Notes under the pieces: model-generated
Database searches by the model: none
Seen by the model: only the letters and a program-made list of their open reading frames with translations
What the model was told of the DNA's origin: nothing
Made by a program: the position numbers and the translations under genes
In this document: in pieces, positions 11,886 to 57,545 of the stretch
How positions within the stretch are numbered: position 1 is the stretch's first letter
Layout: each line of letters begins with the position of its first letter
Source: Octopus vulgaris
Lineage: Eukaryota
Assembly (NCBI GenBank): GCA_951406725.2
Contig: OX597834.1
Coordinates: forward strand, 29,760,001 to 29,824,000
Length of the DNA: 64,000 bases
Reading direction: 5' to 3'

Positions 11886-12210
11886 GTTAAGTTTTTAAGG
11901 TGGCAAGGTGTCAGAATCATAATCAATGCTGGATAGAAATGATTCCAGCTCTTTATGTTCTGAGTTCAAATTCCACCAAGGTAGACTTTGCCTTTCAAGT
12001 TTTTAAGGTGACAAGGTGACAGAATCATTATCAATGCTGGATAGAAATGATTCCAGCTCTTTATGTGCTGAGTTCAAATTCCACCAAGGTAGACTTTGCC
12101 TTTAATCTTTTCTCGGTAGATGAAATATGTACCAGTTGAGCACTTGGGTCAATGTAACCAACTTGCCCCATCCCCCAATATTTCAGACCCTGTGCCTATT
12201 GTAGGAAGAA
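11886..12210 (+). mobile_element. Diverged SINE A with tandem duplication (~108 bp) of its 5' half
   Basis: AAGTTTTTAAGGTG.CAAGGTG.CAGAATCAT...GAGTTCAAATTCCACCAAGGTAGACTTTGCCTTT occurs twice in tandem. Confidence 0.8.
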
Positions 12211-17564: not shown

Positions 17565-18016
17565 CATCATCGTTTAATGTCCGTTCTCCATGCTAGCATG
17601 GGTTGGACAGTTCGACCAGGGATCTGGGAAGCCAGAAGGCTGCACCAGGCTCCAGTCTGATCTGGCAGTGTTTCTACAGCTGGATGCCCTTCCTAACGCC
17701 AACCACTCCGTGAGCGTAGTGGGTGCTTTTTACGTGCCACCTGCACAGTTGCTAGGCAAGGCTGGCAACGGCCATGATCGGATTGGTGCATTTTACGTGC
17801 CACCAGCAGAGGGATCACAACTGCAGTTTCCATTGATTTTGATATTGGTGTACTTGACTCAATGGATCTCCTCAAGCACAGGGTCGAAATGGTGTTTCTT
17901 CACTTGCCACCTGCACAGGAGTAGTCCAGCAGTCCTGGCAACTGCCGGGTGCCAGTCATAGGATTGGTTCCATTTCGATTCCGATTTCACTTGCTCCAAC
18001 AGGTCTTCGCAAGCAG
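17565..18016 (-). mobile_element. RTE-type (TGA)n-tailed retroposon (family C), 5'-truncated
   Basis: CATCATCGTTTAA.GTCCG...CTACAGCTGGATGCCCTTCCTAACGCCAACC shared with 55638, 57232, 28742; flanked by 163-bp direct repeat; RTE assignment is inference. Confidence 0.8.
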
Positions 18017-20580: not shown

Positions 20581-20961
20581 GAGAGAGAGAGAGAGAGAGC
20601 AAAAAACTGCACAGAAAGTTGATATATAAATACTCACACAAACATATATATATATATATATATGTATGTATGAATATAATTATAAATTTTCTATAGAAAA
20701 GCATAAAAAGCATGGAAGTGCTCAAGTCAAACCCAAGATGCTAGACAAGTACAAGAGATACAGAGAAGAAGTTCAATTCAGGCAGACTATGATTGGTGTG
20801 TACATATACGGATTTAATATGATAGAAATGTCTGAAACATATATTAATACATAGAAATATAAAAAAATATAGGGTAAGTTTACGAAAAAAACAAAAGACG
20901 AAGACAGGTGGTGTACAAAACAAACAGATGTATTAGTATAACGCTCAGGAATAGAAAAAGT

Positions 20962-20997
20962 CTTTTATGTTTCGAGCCTATGCCCTTCCACAGAAAG
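20962..20997 (-). ncRNA. Degenerate minimal hammerhead ribozyme motif
   Basis: CTTT-CTGTGGA-A-GGGC ATAG GCTC-GAAA-CAT-A-AAAG; stem I and II pair; core has A6>U. Confidence 0.55.
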
Positions 20998-21283
20998 CGA
21001 CACAGAAAGAAACAAGGAGAGAAACAAGGAGAGAAAAAAATGTGTGTAGTGGCTAGTGATCTATCATGGCGACTGATGTATAAAAATATATATATGAATG
21101 TTAAAAATATGCAAGGACAAATAAATATATAGATATATATAAATATAATATAGATAAAAATATAGATAAGAATAAGGAAATATAGAAGGACATTTCTTTT
21201 AAAAATTCAAAATAAATTATGGAATGGAGGGAGTAAGAGATGTTAAAAAGAGATTTTGGTACCATATTTAAAAGGAAATGATG

Positions 21284-21379: not shown

Positions 21380-22929
21380 GTGTTTGCCCCAGAAATGTAT
21401 TGAATGGTTTAGCAAGTATTAATTAATGTATGTTTTATATAAGAGTCATACAAGTTATGAAAATTTTTAAGAGAGCAGGTGGGTGTTTTTTAAATTTTTT
21501 CAAATAATAACCAAGTGGCAATAAATTGTTATAGTATAGAAAATATTATGTGGGTTCGAATTTAAATTTATTTGAAATGTATTAATATATGTTTCAGACA
21601 ATTCTATCATATTAAATCCGTATATGTACACACCAGTCATAGTCTGCCTGAATTGAACTTCTTCTCTGTATCTCTTGTACTTGTCTAGTATCTTGGGTTT
21701 GACTTGAGCACTTTCATGCTTTTTAAATTTACACGAATTTAAATTTAAATTTACACGAATGAATAGCTTGAGATAATTTATTTAAAACAGTGGAATTTTC
21801 CTAGCATTTAACATCTATATTCCATGCTGGCATGAATTAGATGGTATGACAGGATCCAGCAAGTCCAAGGAGTGCACTATGCACCTGTGTCTGCTTTGGT
21901 AAGGTTTCTACAGCCAGATGCCTTTCCTAAAAAGTAACCACGATGTGTCCTGGGGGGCTTTTTCATGCCATCAACACTATTGAGGTCACCATGCAGCTCA
22001 TGTGTAATTGTAGCTGTTATAATCTTGCATGTTGTGGTATATATTTGGTGTAATTTAGTGTATTTCTGGCTGTGATGATCATTATGTCTTTGAGATGGTC
22101 CTGGTGGTGATGGTTGGTGTGCTTTGGGCTGTTGGGATATTGAAGCCTTTGCCAGCTTTTGTAGGGATATTGAAGCCTTTGCCAACAACAGCTGATGTCA
22201 CTATTGTTGGGGTTTAGCCACAGGTCAACCCTGATCAAGGAGAGCTATGGTCAAAGGCATTCCGGTCAGGTTCATTCTATCTTTTTCCAATGTCCAAGGA
22301 ACTTAGGACCACCACATTATTCTTGTCCATCTCTTAAGACAATAAAATAAGATTTGAAAGTAGTTTAGCAGCTATTTCTAGCAGGCTAAACAACCATGTA
22401 CAGGCTTTTCACTTAGCCAATAGTTGATGTCTCTGACTTGTTGACAGTAGTAATAATAATAATTATATTATAACAACAACAACAATAATAATAGTTCTTT
22501 GTACCATAGGCATTGGACCTGAAAGTTTGAGGAAAGGGGCTAATTGATTATATCAGCCATAAGGTTCAACTAGGGTGAAAAGCAACCATGGTAGGATTTG
22601 AACTCAGAATAGAAAAAAAAGTTGGAAGAATACTGATAAGAGTTTTGTCCAATGCCATAACGAGTCAATAATACTAATGATAATCATTATCATCATTGTT
22701 ATCAGCATCTTTGTATCATGTTAGAAATAGTAATTGTATTTGAGATCATCATCATTGTCATCAACTACATTGTTACCTACATCAACACCTTCATCTCTGC
22801 ACTCATCTGGGTGGTGGTGGTGGTGGTAATGTTAGTCCTCTTCAGCATCACAATCATCATCAACAACTGCGACAACAGCACCACCACCACCACCATCATC
22901 ATGATCATCGGTACAATCAGTATTGTGAC

Positions 22930-25647: not shown

Positions 25648-26600
25648 TAGGGTGCAGTGAATAAATTGTTGTCTAAATTATGCAAAAATGAAAATAACAC
25701 TGACATCTCATTTTAACAGATATATTTACCAAAATTACATAAAAATATCTTTGAATACTAAAGAGTAAATTTATTCAATAAAATCGCCATTGGCTTCAAC
25801 CATGGCCTCCAGACCACTTTGGAATCTTCTGCAACTCTTCTGGATGGTCTCCTTCTTTAAGTTAGTGAATGCTGTCATAATCCTTGCCTTCAGTTCATCT
25901 TTGCTGTTACAAGGGAGTTTTGTTGGTCTCTCACTCGACTGCACCCCACACATAATAATCAAGTAGGTTGCATTCTGGGGAGTTAGGGATGATGTGGTCA
26001 CTGAAATTATTTGAGAACCATGACTGAGTTCTCCTGCTTGTGTTGCATGGTGCAGAGTCTTGTTGCCAGAAATAGTGTCTTCCAGCAGCCACTCTCTTGA
26101 CCCAGAGCAGCACTTGCTCCTCCAGCCACTTGGCATACAGTGTTGAGTTTGAGGTCATGCAGGAAGATGTATGTAGACATAACTAGTGATGTTGACTGGA
26201 TGTTTGATTTTTATCACTCTCGGTACGTTTTGTGAATACGGTACGTCAATGGTTGGTCTGTGTGTTCACCATCTGACCCTGGCAGAAATTTTTTCTCGTT
26301 TGAGAGAAAAAAAAGTATGTTCAGTTGGAAAGGATGCTTGAGTTTGTTCAAAAACTTCCTAGTATGGTAGTTCTTCTTGTCCTTGATGGCTTGGGGTAAA
26401 AATTGGCCCTTTCTCATCTTGTATGAGGAATACCAAATGTCTTCATGCACTACGTGCCTGATAAGAAACTCAGACACTCCCATGTCCCTGGTAATGGATC
26501 TGATTGACTTGAAGGTATCATTGTCAATCATGGCCTGAATCTCACCAACAAATTCAGGAGTTCTTTTCTTATCAGAGCAATCAGAGTGAGTTAAAACCCT
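25648..26600 (-). pseudogene. Tc1/mariner DD37D-like transposase remnant with one terminal repeat
   Basis: FLSNEKKF, WQQDSAPCNTSRRTQSW, PNSPECNLLDYYVWGAVE, ...VEANGDFIE*; frameshifted; end TAGGGTG at 25648. Confidence 0.9.
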
Positions 26601-27152
26601 GAGGGATTGCCAGAACAGCAACTGGATAATTCCATATCATCTTCCTTCCACAGATCCTGCTTGTTGATGTTCCAAAAATGACCAGAAGATTTCAAAAGGA
26701 AATAATCACCGAGTCGATGCCAAGGGATCAAATTTGAGTTTAGGGATCTCTCGGGAGTCTCAGTTCCTTTTTATAACCTACCATCACCACCACCACTACC
26801 GACACCACCGCCGCCACCAAGAACTACATCAATGAGCAATTACTGATGTGTTGTAAATAAGTGTAACAACCGGTGATATGCAAATTATCCAAATCTGCAC
26901 CCATTAAGTCATCTCCAATGAAAAAGGAGGAGAGAAGAGGAGGAGAGAAGAGGAGGAGTAGGAGGAGGAGGAGGAAGTAGATGCAACAGAAGTAAGAATG
27001 AAACATAAAAGGACAACAAACAAGATATGGGCATTAAAATTTCATATTTTCATTGTCACCGTAACCATTATTTTCATCAATTTTAATCATCATCAGCAGC
27101 ATTATTGTAATCACCTTAAGCATATTCATCATCAATGCCATTCTCATCATCG

Positions 27153-33769: not shown

Positions 33770-35455
33770 TAGTGTCATGCACAAAATTATTGGCACCTCT
33801 ACAACATTCGATGATGAACAATCAATAGTGTATTATCCTTTATGCTTAATAACTTCCTGCTATCTGTGAGGGCAATTTCCAATTATCCTCGGGCACAGAT
33901 CAAAAGGAATTTTAGTCCATTCTTCAATTACATATTCTTTCAGCTTCAATTACATATTCTTCAAGTTAGATGGCCCTCTTGCTTTCACTCTTTTCTCTAG
34001 CTCCCATAATAAATTTTCTATTGGGTTTAAGTCAGGACTTTGAACCAGCCATGGGAGTACCTCTATCTTGTTTTCTTTTAACCAATTTTGGATTAAACAT
34101 GAGGTATGCTTGGGATCATAAAGGTTCCACAGTGTGCTGATCCCAGATGCTTCACCAATAACTTCAGGTTTACATCCAAAACACCAACACAATTCTATTT
34201 TGTTATCGTTCCTTCAATTTAAGTTCATTTTCCAGAGCCTTTAGCAGAAAAATAGGTCTGCAGTATTATGCAGCCTCTGCCATGTTTGATGGTATTCTTT
34301 GGATTGTCGGCTTCTCTTCTTTTACTCTAAATGCTAGTCCTATCATTGTGGCCTAACTCAAGATTGGTTTCATTAGACCATAGAACTGAGTGCCAAAAAC
34401 ATTCATCCTTCTTCAGAAAGAACCACGTAAACTTCAAACAATCTGTTAAGTGCTTCTTCAACAATAGTGTATTCCAGGGATGCCTTCAAACCACCTCTAT
34501 TGAAAGTTTGAGTAATCGTTGACCTTGAAGTATGAACTCTGATAGCTGTCAATTTGACTTTCATCACTGCAGTCATTATCTTAGGATCATCGTTGACTGT
34601 TTTAATTAACATTCACTCATCTCATTCTGAAAAGTGTTGTTTTTTGTTTTTTTTCTGCAGTATCAATTCTTGTTCTCCAACAAATATTTCATGATTATGT
34701 TGCAAACAGTTGATTGAGCAATATTGAAATTCTTAGATATTTGTTTCTTTACTACCCACAAGGGGCTAAACTTAGAGGGGACAAACAAAGACAGACAAAC
34801 GGATTAAGACGATTACATCGACCCCAGTGCTTAACTGGTACTTAATTTATTGACCCTGAAAGGATGAAAGGCAAAGTCGACCTCGGCGGAATTTGAACTC
34901 AGAACGTAGCGGCAGACGAAATACGGCTACGCATTTCGCCCGGCATGCTAACAGTTCTGCCAGCTCGCCGCCTTGAAATTGAAATTCTTAGATATTATAT
35001 AATAACCATCTCCAGCAGTGTGAGCATCAACAATCTTTTTCCTTGAGCCAGAACTGTGCTCCAGCACCCTCACCATGACATTGCAGATAGGTTTGTTGAC
35101 CAAAAGAAGGTTGCAAGAACATTGTGTAAGTGATGTCACAAGGCCTTAGAAGTTCCTGTATTTTACAACTTTCTCAGGATGATGTAATGTCTATTAATCA
35201 ACATGTATTCTTATATTGTAGTCCAAATCAGTGTTTTTTGCAATGCAATAATAAAAATTATTTTGAACCATGCTTGAAAGATTTATCAGCTGAGATTACC
35301 AAACATCACCAGACGTCCTCTTTTGGCAAAATTTATGCTTTAGTTGTTCACATTATTGTGACATAAGAGCACTTTTGTACACATCTCATTTTAAAAACAA
35401 ATTCAATAAAAACCCATTTTTGACAAGGAGTGCCAATAATTTGTATGCATAACTG
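33770..35455 (-). mobile_element. Tc1 (DD34E) element with both TIRs, transposase degraded
   Basis: TIRs TAGTGTCATGCACAAAATTATTGGCAC / GTGCCAATAATTTGTATGCATAACTG; DPKHTS...LPWLVQSPDLNPIENLLWELEKRV. Confidence 0.88.
34742..34972 (-). mobile_element. SINE A inserted in the Tc1 element
   Basis: Full copy; TSD ATTGAAATTCTTAGATATT at 34723-34741 and 34978-34996. Confidence 0.93.
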
Positions 35456-51706: not shown

Positions 51707-53321
51707 TCAAGCTACAAAATGAAAATCTAATAATATTTGCGAAAAAGGGAAAAAAATATTTAGTGTATGTTGTATTCTGATCTTATAAAATGTGTATTGT
51801 TCTGCAATTTGAACAAGATGTTCAAATTTTCTCCTGGGGTACCTCTTCCACCACATAAACTCGATTAAATTTTGAGGGAACAACTTGGAAAAGGTACCAG
51901 AAGTTTGTCGATATTTGCACTTAGCATACACGCCCACATGGTTTCCACATGGTTTGTGTGGACACCTTTGGTTTCATCTGAAGAGCAAGATGGGGTTGGG
52001 GAGGAAGACCCCTGCCACCGAGTGAATACGAAAAACGATGGAAGGATGTGATGAGAAAGGTGGGTGTGAGAAACCCAGCTTAATCATCGAAGAAAGGAAA
52101 AATTAGTTGTTGGGCCTTCTGGGCTACCGGGTTCAAATTTTGAACCTGCAATTTTTTCCCTTTTTTCCCCCTTTTTACCATGTTATGTTCTCTAGTTTTA
52201 TTTTTAAAAAATACAAAAGTTCTCGTTGTAAAGGCAAAAGTAAACCAATTATTCGTTTAAAGGCAAAAGCAAGCCAAGGTTTCGTTTATTTCATATTATA
52301 ATTAAATTTTTAAAAGTCTCATTCGAACTCTTGTAACATTTTTGTATTTGTCTGTCTTGTTATGTCCTTTTCTATGTTAGATCTCATGATCATAATAAAG
52401 ATTTGCGAAATGCGTTGCCGTATTTCGTCTGCCGTTACATTCTGAGTTCAAATTCCGCCGAGGTCGACTTTGCCTTTCATCCTTTGGGGGTCGATAAATT
52501 AAGTACCAGTTACGCACTGGGGTCGATGTAATCGACTTAATCCGTTTGTCTGTCCTTGTTTGTACCCTCTGTGTATAGCCCCTTATGGGCAGTAACGAAA
52601 TGAATAAAGATTTTACCTTCGGTTTCATCAACAAATGATATAGAATGGAAACCTAGATTTTGCAAAATACGGTACACCGCCCATTCGTCGGTAAAAATTA
52701 TATTACATGGATGGACATGTTGCTGGCTAATGGATTCCAAAGGATCCATGGACCGGCTATTATCCGGCCACTCTGGAAGGAAGCAGTTCATGGGATTGTC
52801 CAATGAAATCCCACCCAACACTCGAATGCCGTCGTAGTGCGCGCCCCGCCGGTTTTTTTCCGGTGCAGAAATTACGATCCGTAAATGGCGACCAGGACAC
52901 CAGTACCGCCAATCGTTACCGGATTGTTAATAATGTTTTCTGCTAAAACGTCTCGGCAGAAATTAGCCAAATACCACCACAGTGGACCAACTTGCAATAT
53001 TAAGTTCACGCATCATTGATTTTACTGGTTCCTCAATGGACCCCCAATACAGAATCTGCAGTATTATACCTAAAGAGAGGTGGCCATTAGAGAAAAACGA
53101 TCTGTTTCTAATGGAGTAGCTCTTCCGACATCGCCGAGAGCAGTGCACTTCCAAGTATATCCATCTCGATGCTGCGATGATTTAACTAAGGAAAAATTGC
53201 GGCCACATTCACAGACATGAGCTTGAGCTAAAAGCCCATATATTTTTCACCAGTCAATTAGCCCGCCATGGTCAGTGCATATTCGAATAATGTCTGATAA
53301 GTGAAATGGAGGATGGTGCAT
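51707..53321 (-). pseudogene. Merlin / IS1595 (ISXO2-like) DDE transposase pseudogene
   Basis: ATG 53321; CECG...DGYTWKC...CRKSYSIRNRSFF, ANFCRDV...IGGTGVLVAIYGS* (VEIDES site mutated), VLGGI, IIFTDEWAVY, FVDETEG / [21 protein letters not shown]; stops, frameshifts and an insertion. Confidence 0.9.
52404..52600 (+). mobile_element. SINE A, 5'-truncated, inside the transposase insertion
   Basis: Family match; flanked by AATAA(A)GATTT. Confidence 0.9.
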
Positions 53322-55602: not shown

Positions 55603-55637
<35 letters not shown>

Positions 55638-55639
<2 letters not shown>

Positions 55640-55811
55640 TCATCATCATCATCATCATCATCATCGTTTAACGTCCGTTTTCCGCGCTTGCACGGGTTGG
55701 ACGGTTCGACCGGGGTCTGGGAAGCCAGGGGCTGCACCAGGCTCCGGTCTGATCTGGCAGAGTTTCTACAGCTGGATGCCCTTCCTAACGCCAACCACTC
55801 CGCGAGTGTAG
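55638..55811 (-). mobile_element. Family C RTE-type 3' end, CpG-intact (young)
   Basis: (CAT)n tail plus conserved family motifs. Confidence 0.8.
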
Positions 55812-55900
55812 TATATATGTATATATATATATATATGCATGTACCGTTGGCGATTTTTTTTTCCTCTGTCTTCCCTTCTCTGGATCTTTCCTTCTCCTAT

Positions 55901-55935
55901 GTTTCCGACGAAGAGCTCCGCTCGAAACGTTAAAC
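55901..55935 (+). ncRNA. Minimal Penelope-type hammerhead ribozyme motif
   Basis: GTTT-CCGACGA-A-GAGC TCC GCTC-GAA-ACGT-T-AAAC: stem I GTTT/AAAC, stem II GAGC/GCTC, palindromic stem III, GUU site; U4>C. Confidence 0.7.
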
Positions 55936-56039
55936 CCTCCTTCTTTCCTGAGCATCCAATAATACTATATTTGTTCCACATCCTCGCGTTGTTGTGTTTT
56001 TTTGTGCTTTCTTGTTTGGATTAACTTTATATATATATG

Positions 56040-56093
<54 letters not shown>

Positions 56094-56373
56094 TATATAT
56101 ATACACATATGTGTGTGTGTTTGTGTGTGTTTGTGTATATGATGCAAACAAAAACACTGAAAATAAAAAATCAAATACAGAGTAAAACAAGTGTAAGTTA
56201 TTCCCCTCGATGGGGCTTTATTGGAATAAATTAATAAAGACAGGGACAAGTTGGGACCTGTTTCATCCTTCCATTGAGATACTGAAGACTCGTTAACCAC
56301 AGTCTTCTACCAATAATATCAGTGATTATGATGATGGTGGTGATAATAAGAGTAATTACACATACACATACAA

Positions 56374-57231: not shown

Positions 57232-57545
57232 CATCATCATCATCATCGTTTAACGTCCGTTCTCCATGCTAGCATGGGTTGGACGGTTCTGGGATCCGGG
57301 GATCTGGGAAGCCAGAAGGCTGCACCAGGCTCCAGTCTTATCTGGCAATGTTTCTACAGCTGGATGCCCTTTCCTAACGCCAACCACTCCGTGAGTGTAG
57401 TGGGTGCTTTTTACGTGCCACCCGCACAGGTGCCAGGCGAGGCTGGCAACGGCCACGGTCAGATTGGTGCATTTTACGTGCCACTGGCACGGAAGCCAGT
57501 CGAGGCGGCACTGGCTTCGGCCACGATTCAGATGGTTCTTTTTAC
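57232..57545 (-). mobile_element. Family C RTE-type retroposon
   Basis: Colinear with 17565-17810. Confidence 0.8.

What the first reader, a model, noticed from the sequence alone, without database searches (positions are those of the whole stretch)
55841..56026. ~190-bp hammerhead cassette inserted in (TA)n: candidate microsatellite-targeted ribozyme retroelement
Seen: a non-coding, CpG-retaining cassette bounded by (TA)n contains a 35-nt hammerhead with paired stems I and II and palindromic ACGT stem III. A diverged cassette at ~20873-21075 (-) has the same layout (pyrimidine tract, hammerhead, TTCCTGAGC, AATAC, T-rich end). Known: Penelope-like elements carry minimal hammerheads with palindromic stem III thought to act as dimers. 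Inference: a non-autonomous retrozyme-like family mobilised by PLE enzymes that homes to TA repeats, with unusual cores (U4>C, extra A after A9).
Basis: partly seen in the sequence, partly recalled or inferred. Interest (0 to 1): 0.75.

Follow-up and report, generated by a model that had tools for sequence, protein, structure and literature searches.

The report
Abundant Penelope retroelement end with hammerhead
This 190-base insert in a TA microsatellite is one copy of a very abundant repeat carrying a minimal hammerhead-ribozyme motif, and it is likely the lone terminal repeat of a Penelope-like jumping gene, a known arrangement; only a rarely seen core letter (U4 to C), shared by many copies, is mildly unusual.

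Summary
A type I minimal hammerhead motif lies at 55901-55935, in a ~190-bp cassette between TA tracts. It is the only descriptor hit in the window. A diverged cassette with a damaged core lies at 20873-21075 (-). Thousands of contigs from two assembled DNA-type runs (X1, X13) lie on the cassette, so it is a large repeat family; one raw-read run gave only 2 reads (unexplained).

[quoted passage not shown] TA bias is reported for other PLEs. No tandem array, circular junction or cleavage was shown, so retrozyme membership is not met.

Best reading: a solo pseudo-LTR (pLTR) of an autonomous PLE (0.55). A self-propagating non-autonomous mini-PLE remains open (0.3). U4>C is shared by many copies here and by 30 of 58 coral-type loci: a small novelty.

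The parts
55837..56027 (+). Whole hammerhead cassette (c1); likely solo pLTR / 3' end of a Penelope-like element; ends uncertain by a few bases because of the TA flanks
55812..55836 (.). 5' TA microsatellite flank (likely target)
56028..56103 (.). 3' (TA)38 flank (likely target)
55854..55900 (+). Pyrimidine/U-rich leader before stem I, as in the published PLE min-HHR consensus
55901..55935 (+). Type I minimal hammerhead motif: stem I 55901-04/55932-35, C4 at 55906, extra A 55912, stem II 55913-16/55920-23, ACGT palindrome 55927-30, predicted cut after 55931
55945..55953 (+). 9-nt block shared exactly with the second cassette; candidate cis-signal, function untested
20873..21075 (-). Second, diverged cassette (c2), probably a different family of the same type
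20962..20997 (-). Damaged hammerhead of c2 (U4, A6>U, C.A mismatch at 15.2-16.2, compensatory change in stem I)
55636..55811 (-). Unrelated abundant repeat with a (GAT)10 tail, cut short, sharing the same TA tract; a neighbour, not part of the cassette

Best explanation
The cassette is one recent copy of a repeat present in many variants, and it is likely the solo pseudo-LTR (pLTR) of an endonuclease-bearing, probably Neptune-type, Penelope-like retrotransposon, inferred to have been pasted into a TA microsatellite by that element's own RT and GIY-YIG protein.

Shown: motif anatomy, repeat status, no ORF in or near the cassette, and the same core behind a Neptune-type ORF in another animal group.

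Inferred: (1) a full-length master elsewhere in the genome is transcribed from its pLTR; (2) its protein nicks AT-rich or (TA)n DNA; (3) reverse transcription starts at an internal site just downstream of a pLTR and runs to the RNA's 5' end or stalls, as reported in vitro for an anole PLE, which would leave a ~190-bp, ORF-less copy with near-fixed ends; (4) the hammerhead is a passenger in this copy, at most weakly active (C4, GUU, no stem III), and would need a partner copy or the PLE protein. Most such copies are dead ends.
For: The motif fits the published metazoan PLE min-HHR consensus at every position except 4, and that paper says most motifs occur singly and probably belong to truncated PLEs (PMC4209133).

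A near-identical core is listed there for an Acropora digitifera Neptune element. In 74 of 123 pattern matches (120 metagenome loci) it lies in AT-rich animal-type DNA. In L008 it is ~190 nt behind a broken ORF whose relatives carry RVT_1 and GIY-YIG domains and include two proteins named from stony corals. 11 of those 74 loci keep PLE coding remnants nearby (three pairs look like duplicates). 40 of 58 de-duplicated loci stop 1-12 nt before the core, 7 reach the ORF, and 0 of 58 have a second same-strand hammerhead. 25 of 71 carry an inverted partial copy. So short, ORF-less solo copies are the common product in a family with a coding parent.

The length matches reported pLTRs of 181-218 bp (PMC3846280 passages). 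PLE protein cuts AT-rich DNA and starts RT internally, and the hammerhead is protein-assisted and dispensable for insertion in vitro (PMC11167929).

7454 (X1) and 4337 (X13) contigs lie on the cassette. c1 differs from the majority letter at only 2 listed sites, both CpG.
Against: No parent PLE was found for this family. The window has no RT or GIY-YIG remnant (214 of 220 candidate frames scanned; tblastn blank), and the host genome is not held.

Outside the core, c1 shows no similarity to the coral family (shuffle fractions 0.55 and 0.78), and the shared core was partly forced by my search pattern. The link to Neptune is therefore by analogy.

Both cassettes in the window are ~190-200 bp. Depth over the leader (55880-903) is 1.3-1.7 times that downstream of the core, so most copies keep the leader, unlike the coral family; this fits a discrete mini-element equally well. 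No loose end showing an ORF tail appears among the 18 rows shown (197 not shown; rows at the masked ends dropped). 0 of 74 coral-type loci have (TA)5 within 300 bp. Raw-read run X23 gave only 2 reads in 1934 million letters.
Confidence: 0.55

Rival explanations
1. A discrete non-autonomous mini-PLE (SINE-like): the ~190-bp unit is itself transcribed and re-inserted in trans by a TA-preferring PLE protein, without a circular stage.
For: Apparent common 5' reach of copies: 8 of 16 listed DNA-type contigs start at 55855-57 and 2 at 55847, and leader depth is not lower than downstream depth. Several subfamily-level variants (10-32% of depth in X1). Two ORF-less cassettes of similar length in 64 kb. 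Non-autonomous PLEs and trans-mobilisation by pLTRs are reported.
Against: Fixed ends are also predicted for solo pLTRs by internal RT initiation. Contig starts coincide with a poly-T run where unitigs break anyway. Independent transcription is not shown (X8 is RNA only by guess).
Confidence: 0.3
2. Monomer offspring of a true non-LTR retrozyme: tandem masters self-cleave as dimers at GUU, circularise and are re-inserted by PLE enzymes.
For: Size (~190 nt) is close to retrozyme monomers of 220-390 nt (PMC7229834 passages). Dispersed monomers of pLTR-derived retrozymes are reported (bioRxiv 10.64898/2026.07.22.740005). The palindrome allows a dimer on paper. One X13 contig goes back from 55975 to 55885.
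Against: No tandem copy in the window and no whole-unit head-to-tail joint in 4 runs (weak test). The hammerhead is of the minimal PLE type, which PMC7229834 separates from the canonical retrozyme type. The modelled active dimer scores -7.3 kcal/mol against -24.7 for an alternative duplex and 2 x -4.6 for monomers. U4C lowers activity in a viroid. 8 of 9 tested Xenopus dimers did not cleave.
Confidence: 0.1
3. The TA context is incidental: the element inserts in AT-rich DNA generally, or TA tracts grew after insertion, and c1 simply landed in a local sink.
For: 4.3% of the window is perfect (TA)5+. An unrelated repeat shares the same tract while its two closest copies are not in TA. c2 lacks a true (TA)n on its 3' side.
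Against: The chance of TA on both sides is 1.6-2.6%. Three loose-end rows at 56000-56001 run on into short TA. (TA)n preference is listed for octopus Naiad PLEs.
Confidence: 0.25
4. Chance motif or assembly artefact.
For: No Rfam hit; only 2 raw reads in X23.
Against: 1 of 200 shuffles gives any descriptor hit. 18 runs hold half or more of the sampled words (some may be the source of the window). Stem I covaries between families.
Confidence: 0.02

Closest known systems
Minimal hammerheads (min-HHR) in pLTRs of metazoan Penelope-like elements (Cervera & de la Pena 2014, PMC4209133), nearest row Acropora digitifera Neptune
   Same: Type I, U-rich leader, short stem I, extra nucleotide between 9 and 10.1, G10.1-C11.1, palindromic 15.2-16.2 without stem III, mostly solitary and abundant. 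The core and stem II are nearly the same as the Acropora row.
   Different: C instead of U at position 4 (no such row in the supplement part I read). 3-nt loop II and a different stem I. No sequence likeness outside the core. TA flanks. Parent ORF not found.
Solo pLTRs and 5'-truncated PLE insertions (Arkhipova et al. 2013, PMC3846280; Frangieh et al. 2024, PMC11167929)
   Same: ~200-bp length, no ORF, AT-rich or simple-repeat target, no discernible target-site duplication.
   Different: No inverted partner copy or 30-40-bp tail seen at this locus; the copy number appears far higher than in the rotifer.
Non-LTR retrozymes of animals (Cervera & de la Pena 2020, PMC7229834; Li, Clavereau & Pollet 2026 preprint)
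   Same: Short, non-coding, type I hammerhead, PLE-related; dispersed monomers occur.
   Different: Defined by tandem units and circular RNAs, with canonical hammerheads in the 2020 paper. Here there is a lone unit with a minimal hammerhead and no array or circle seen.
Naiad PLEs, including the octopus families (Craig et al. 2021, PMC8557442)
   Same: (TA)n insertion preference.
   Different: Naiads lack canonical hammerheads. The 3' ends of the two octopus Naiad consensuses I saw do not resemble the cassette by eye, and four short cassette motifs gave no matching context in that supplement.

Membership tests
PLE minimal hammerhead (min-HHR) | Type I topology with stems I and II paired | tested here: met
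   3 of 4 stem I pairs change on both sides across 23 sequences, stem II none and partly forced by the pattern
PLE minimal hammerhead (min-HHR) | Extra nucleotide between 9 and 10.1, G10.1-C11.1, palindromic 15.2-16.2 | tested here: met
PLE minimal hammerhead (min-HHR) | Core CUGANGA | tested here: not met
   c1 has C at position 4; U4 is in 14-32% of laid depth in three runs and in c2. One-letter variant of the consensus.
PLE minimal hammerhead (min-HHR) | Self-cleavage (weak; dimer- or protein-assisted) | not testable with these tools
   needs an assay; no read-end pile-up was listed, but contigs cannot show one
pLTR of an EN+ (Neptune-type) Penelope-like element | Same sequence flanks an RT + GIY-YIG ORF somewhere in the genome | not testable with these tools
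   genome not held; none in the window; met only for the look-alike family L008
pLTR of an EN+ (Neptune-type) Penelope-like element | Variable 5' truncation, partial tandems, inverted copies, optional tail | tested here: inconclusive
   absent at c1; ends masked; one back-joint contig in X13; present in coral-type loci
pLTR of an EN+ (Neptune-type) Penelope-like element | Insertion bias to AT-rich or simple repeats | tested here: inconclusive
   met at c1 (background 1.6-2.6%), weak at c2; family-wide flanks not visible
Non-LTR retrozyme | Two or more tandem units, each with a hammerhead | tested here: not met
   single unit at both loci; no whole-unit joint (low power); arrays elsewhere in the genome are not excluded
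Non-LTR retrozyme | Abundant monomeric linear and circular RNA | not testable with these tools
   only contigs of a run guessed to be RNA were laid (X8)
Non-LTR retrozyme | No coding capacity | tested here: met
   no Pfam hit; no meaningful protein relative of the longest frame
Naiad PLE | No canonical hammerhead; N-terminal endonuclease | tested here: not met
   the cassette has a full min-HHR layout; no likeness seen to the octopus Naiad 3' ends

The most novel reading that the evidence does not exclude
A self-propagating, TA-microsatellite-homing mini-Penelope family of about 190 bp has reached thousands of copies or more while carrying a U4C-weakened hammerhead. The same U4C change marks a successful subfamily of coral Neptune elements, so a damped or protein-gated ribozyme may be favoured repeatedly in PLE replication.
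Probability: 0.2. Interest if true: 0.5.

Novelty: new member of a known kind. Interest (0 to 1): 0.2.

Why it matters
As a solo pLTR it is ordinary: PLE minimal hammerheads occur by the thousand in animal genomes. Two small points have value.

First, the U4C core is a subfamily trait in two distant animal groups. It holds most of the laid depth here and occurs in 30 of 58 coral-type loci, tied to a downstream marker in 23. It creates a CpG that should decay back to U. That gives a natural C4/U4 pair for testing whether PLE hammerheads need to cleave at all, which is still open after the in vitro result that cleavage is dispensable.

Second, a young, very abundant family with apparently fixed ends is a good genomic test of the internal-initiation model against true non-autonomous replication.

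Tried and rejected
- Whole-genome analysis: no genome held.
- Rfam: no hammerhead in the 186-nt cassette (3 chance hits), nor in the 150 of 280 window hits shown.
- A two-cassette pattern found nothing in metagenome, viral or GTDB contigs; an exact core found nothing in GTDB. The one viral match is GC-rich coding DNA without the stems, so chance. The pattern's 0 of 100 shuffles is not evidence, because it was built from the two cassettes.
- 29 GC-rich pattern matches lack the hammerhead context, and 20 AT-rich ones failed the C3/U16.1 filter; all 49 were dropped before the count of 74.
- The cassette's 61-codon frame has no relatives. The single phmmer hit is a repetitive Pro/Ser protein, rejected as chance.
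- An nhmmer profile from c1 and c2 finds no third copy in the window.
- One search used a structure string that was off by one column; one search replaces it.
- Within-family covariation was not seen: no stem I variant reached 3%. Core variants other than position 4 are CpG changes at about 3% in X1, like other CpG sites, so there is no evidence of selection on inserted copies.
- Summed contig depth is not a copy number. My bounds (about 5,000-155,000 for X1; 3,000-93,000 for X13) assume single-copy depth near 20 and 10 and are rough.
- That the host looks like an octopus is my recollection of the repeat landscape; no call names it.

Full report
Observation. Window 55837-56027 is a non-coding cassette between a TA tract (55812-55836) and (TA)38 (56028-56103). 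It holds a type I hammerhead motif at 55901-55935, with 4-bp stems I and II, C at position 4, an extra A after A9, an ACGT palindrome in place of stem III, and a GUU triplet. It is the only descriptor hit in the window; 1 of 200 block-shuffled windows gave any hit. The isolated 45-nt piece folds into both stems. The whole cassette is predicted to keep only stem II and is not unusually stable, z -0.17. Rfam does not recognise it.

Second cassette. The one at 20873-21075 (-) is related: its downstream part beats 499 of 500 shuffles, with a compensatory stem I change. It has U4, a damaged core, no palindrome and no true TA tract on its 3' side. It lies inside a 149-bp inverted repeat whose arms are 97% complementary. 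No third copy was found in the window.

Repeat status. No genome is held. Of 24 listed runs, 18 hold half or more of the 17 sampled words, under four organism labels; 4 rows are marked as possible sources of the window. Laying 4 runs on 55808-56046 placed 7454 contigs of X1 (a possible source), 4337 of X13 and 212 of X8 (RNA by guess only), spread from 99% to under 90% identity. Summed depth is not a copy number; rough bounds give thousands to about 100,000 copies. Against this, the raw-read run X23 gave 2 reads in 1934 million letters. The tool's silent filter for human-like reads or a different sample make-up could explain that, but I could not test either.

Variation among copies. c1 differs from the majority letter at 2 listed sites, both CpG, so it is likely a young copy. 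Position 4 is U in 32% (X1), 24% (X13) and 14% (X8) of depth, against 3-5% change at other CpG sites in X1. C4 is thus a subfamily trait and holds most of the laid depth, a share biased upward because c1 was the bait. No stem I variant reached 3%, so within-family covariation was neither shown nor refuted. Both ends were masked as repeats, so flanks and whole-unit joints are poorly tested. Three loose-end rows at 56000-56001 run on into short TA, and one X13 contig turns back from 55975 to 55885.

What carries this core elsewhere. A scan of metagenome contigs with the core motif gave 120 loci (about 250 estimated in the collection). 74 of 123 matches are hammerhead-like in AT-rich DNA. In L008 the core lies ~190 nt behind the stop of a broken ORF with a CX2-5CxxC linker and a GIY-YIG-like region. 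Its longer relatives carry RVT_1 and GIY-YIG, and two are named from stony corals. The same hammerhead is listed for an Acropora digitifera Neptune element in the supplement of PMC4209133.

That family's copies. Of 58 de-duplicated loci, 40 begin 1-12 nt before the core, 11 reach 13-190 nt upstream, 7 reach the ORF, 40 end at +80 to +95, and none has a second same-strand hammerhead; 30 have C4, 27 U4 and 1 G. 25 of 71 (not de-duplicated) have an inverted partial copy. None of 74 has (TA)5 within 300 bp. Across 23 aligned hammerheads (2 from the window, all 9 unforced and 12 of 66 pattern-forced coral-type ones), 3 of 4 stem I pairs change on both sides; relatedness inflates such scores. Outside the core, c1 is not similar to this family, so it is an analogy and not the parent. 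The window has no PLE coding remnant (214 of 220 frames scanned, 6 low-complexity frames left out; tblastn).

Mechanism. The most likely reading (0.55) is a solo pLTR from an autonomous PLE. In vitro, an anole PLE protein cuts AT-rich DNA, starts reverse transcription inside the RNA just downstream of the pLTR, assists hammerhead cleavage, and does not need that cleavage for insertion (PMC11167929). I infer that such initiation yields ORF-less copies with near-fixed ends, so fixed length alone does not prove non-autonomous replication. A discrete mini-PLE copied in trans (0.3) fits the kept leader and the two similar-sized cassettes. A circle-forming retrozyme (0.1) lacks arrays and junctions, and its active dimer is not favoured by nearest-neighbour energies. 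TA targeting is plausible (background 1.6-2.6%) but rests on one clean locus, which it shares with an unrelated repeat.

What is known. The extra nucleotide, the palindrome, the U-rich leader, weak dimer activity and solitary truncated copies are in PMC4209133 (read: parts 1-2 of 4 of the text; supplement file 2, part 2 of 3 plus passages; file 1 not searchable). (TA)n bias in Naiads, its hypothesised presence in Neptune, and non-autonomous PLEs are in PMC8557442 (passages of text and supplement). pLTR-derived retrozymes and dispersed monomers are in bioRxiv 10.64898/2026.07.22.740005 (parts 1-3 of 5; supplements closed). U4C as a viroid variant with lower activity is in PMC3088659 (passages). 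I read passages only of PMC3846280, PMC7229834, PMC13282606 (30 recently active Penelope families in O. vulgaris; repeat library not seen, and it may already hold this family), PMC3376415, PMC8969392, PMC12602865, PMC6962438 and PMC8967140.

What I did not find in print. Searches showed no paper describing this cassette or U4C in PLE hammerheads. The figure text in the 2014 supplement is scrambled and could hide a C4 family; subscription journals, Repbase and Dfam were not searched. The octopus-like identity of the host is recalled, not from a call. Earlier scan notes on other genomes reached similar readings; they are unchecked and are not used as support.

Verdict. A real, abundant PLE-type hammerhead repeat: a new member of a known kind. 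The retrozyme and family-wide homing claims are unproven. Interest 0.2.

Noticed in passing
window 20704-20852 and 21577-21725: 149-bp inverted repeat, 97% complementary, 724 bp apart, enclosing the second cassette 20 bp from one arm; no other copy in the window. MITE-like element or local inversion-duplication.
   Followed up: partly
window 55636-55811; also 17567-17720, 57243-57401 and 7 weaker matches: Abundant repeat with an (ATC)n end, read as a (GAT)n-tailed retroposon on the minus strand. The copy at 55636 is cut short and shares the TA tract with the cassette, while its two closest copies are not in TA.
   Followed up: partly
coral-type loci such as L003, L004, L016, L022: 40 of 58 copies of the Neptune-type family begin 1-12 nt before the hammerhead core. 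The sharp pile-up could mark an RT stop at stem I, a splice acceptor or a transcription start; copies starting at the cut site are invisible to my pattern.
   Followed up: partly
coral-type loci: U4C is in 30 of 58 loci and is tied to one downstream subfamily marker (23 with C, 0 with U).
   Followed up: partly
window 25771-26636 (-), 33953-34213 (-), 34951-35145 (-), 52540-52926 (-): Decayed DNA-transposon remnants: Tc1/mariner-like frames (DDE_3 E 2e-4, HTH_SB E 4e-6; the 25771-26636 frames by recalled resemblance only) and an ISXO2-like fragment (E 0.004).
   Followed up: no
run X23 laid on window 55808-56046: Only 2 raw reads in 1934 million letters, despite the same species label as X1, where thousands of contigs match. 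Unexplained.
   Followed up: no
window 11889-12103: Two-copy 108-bp tandem duplication, 96% matches.
   Followed up: no
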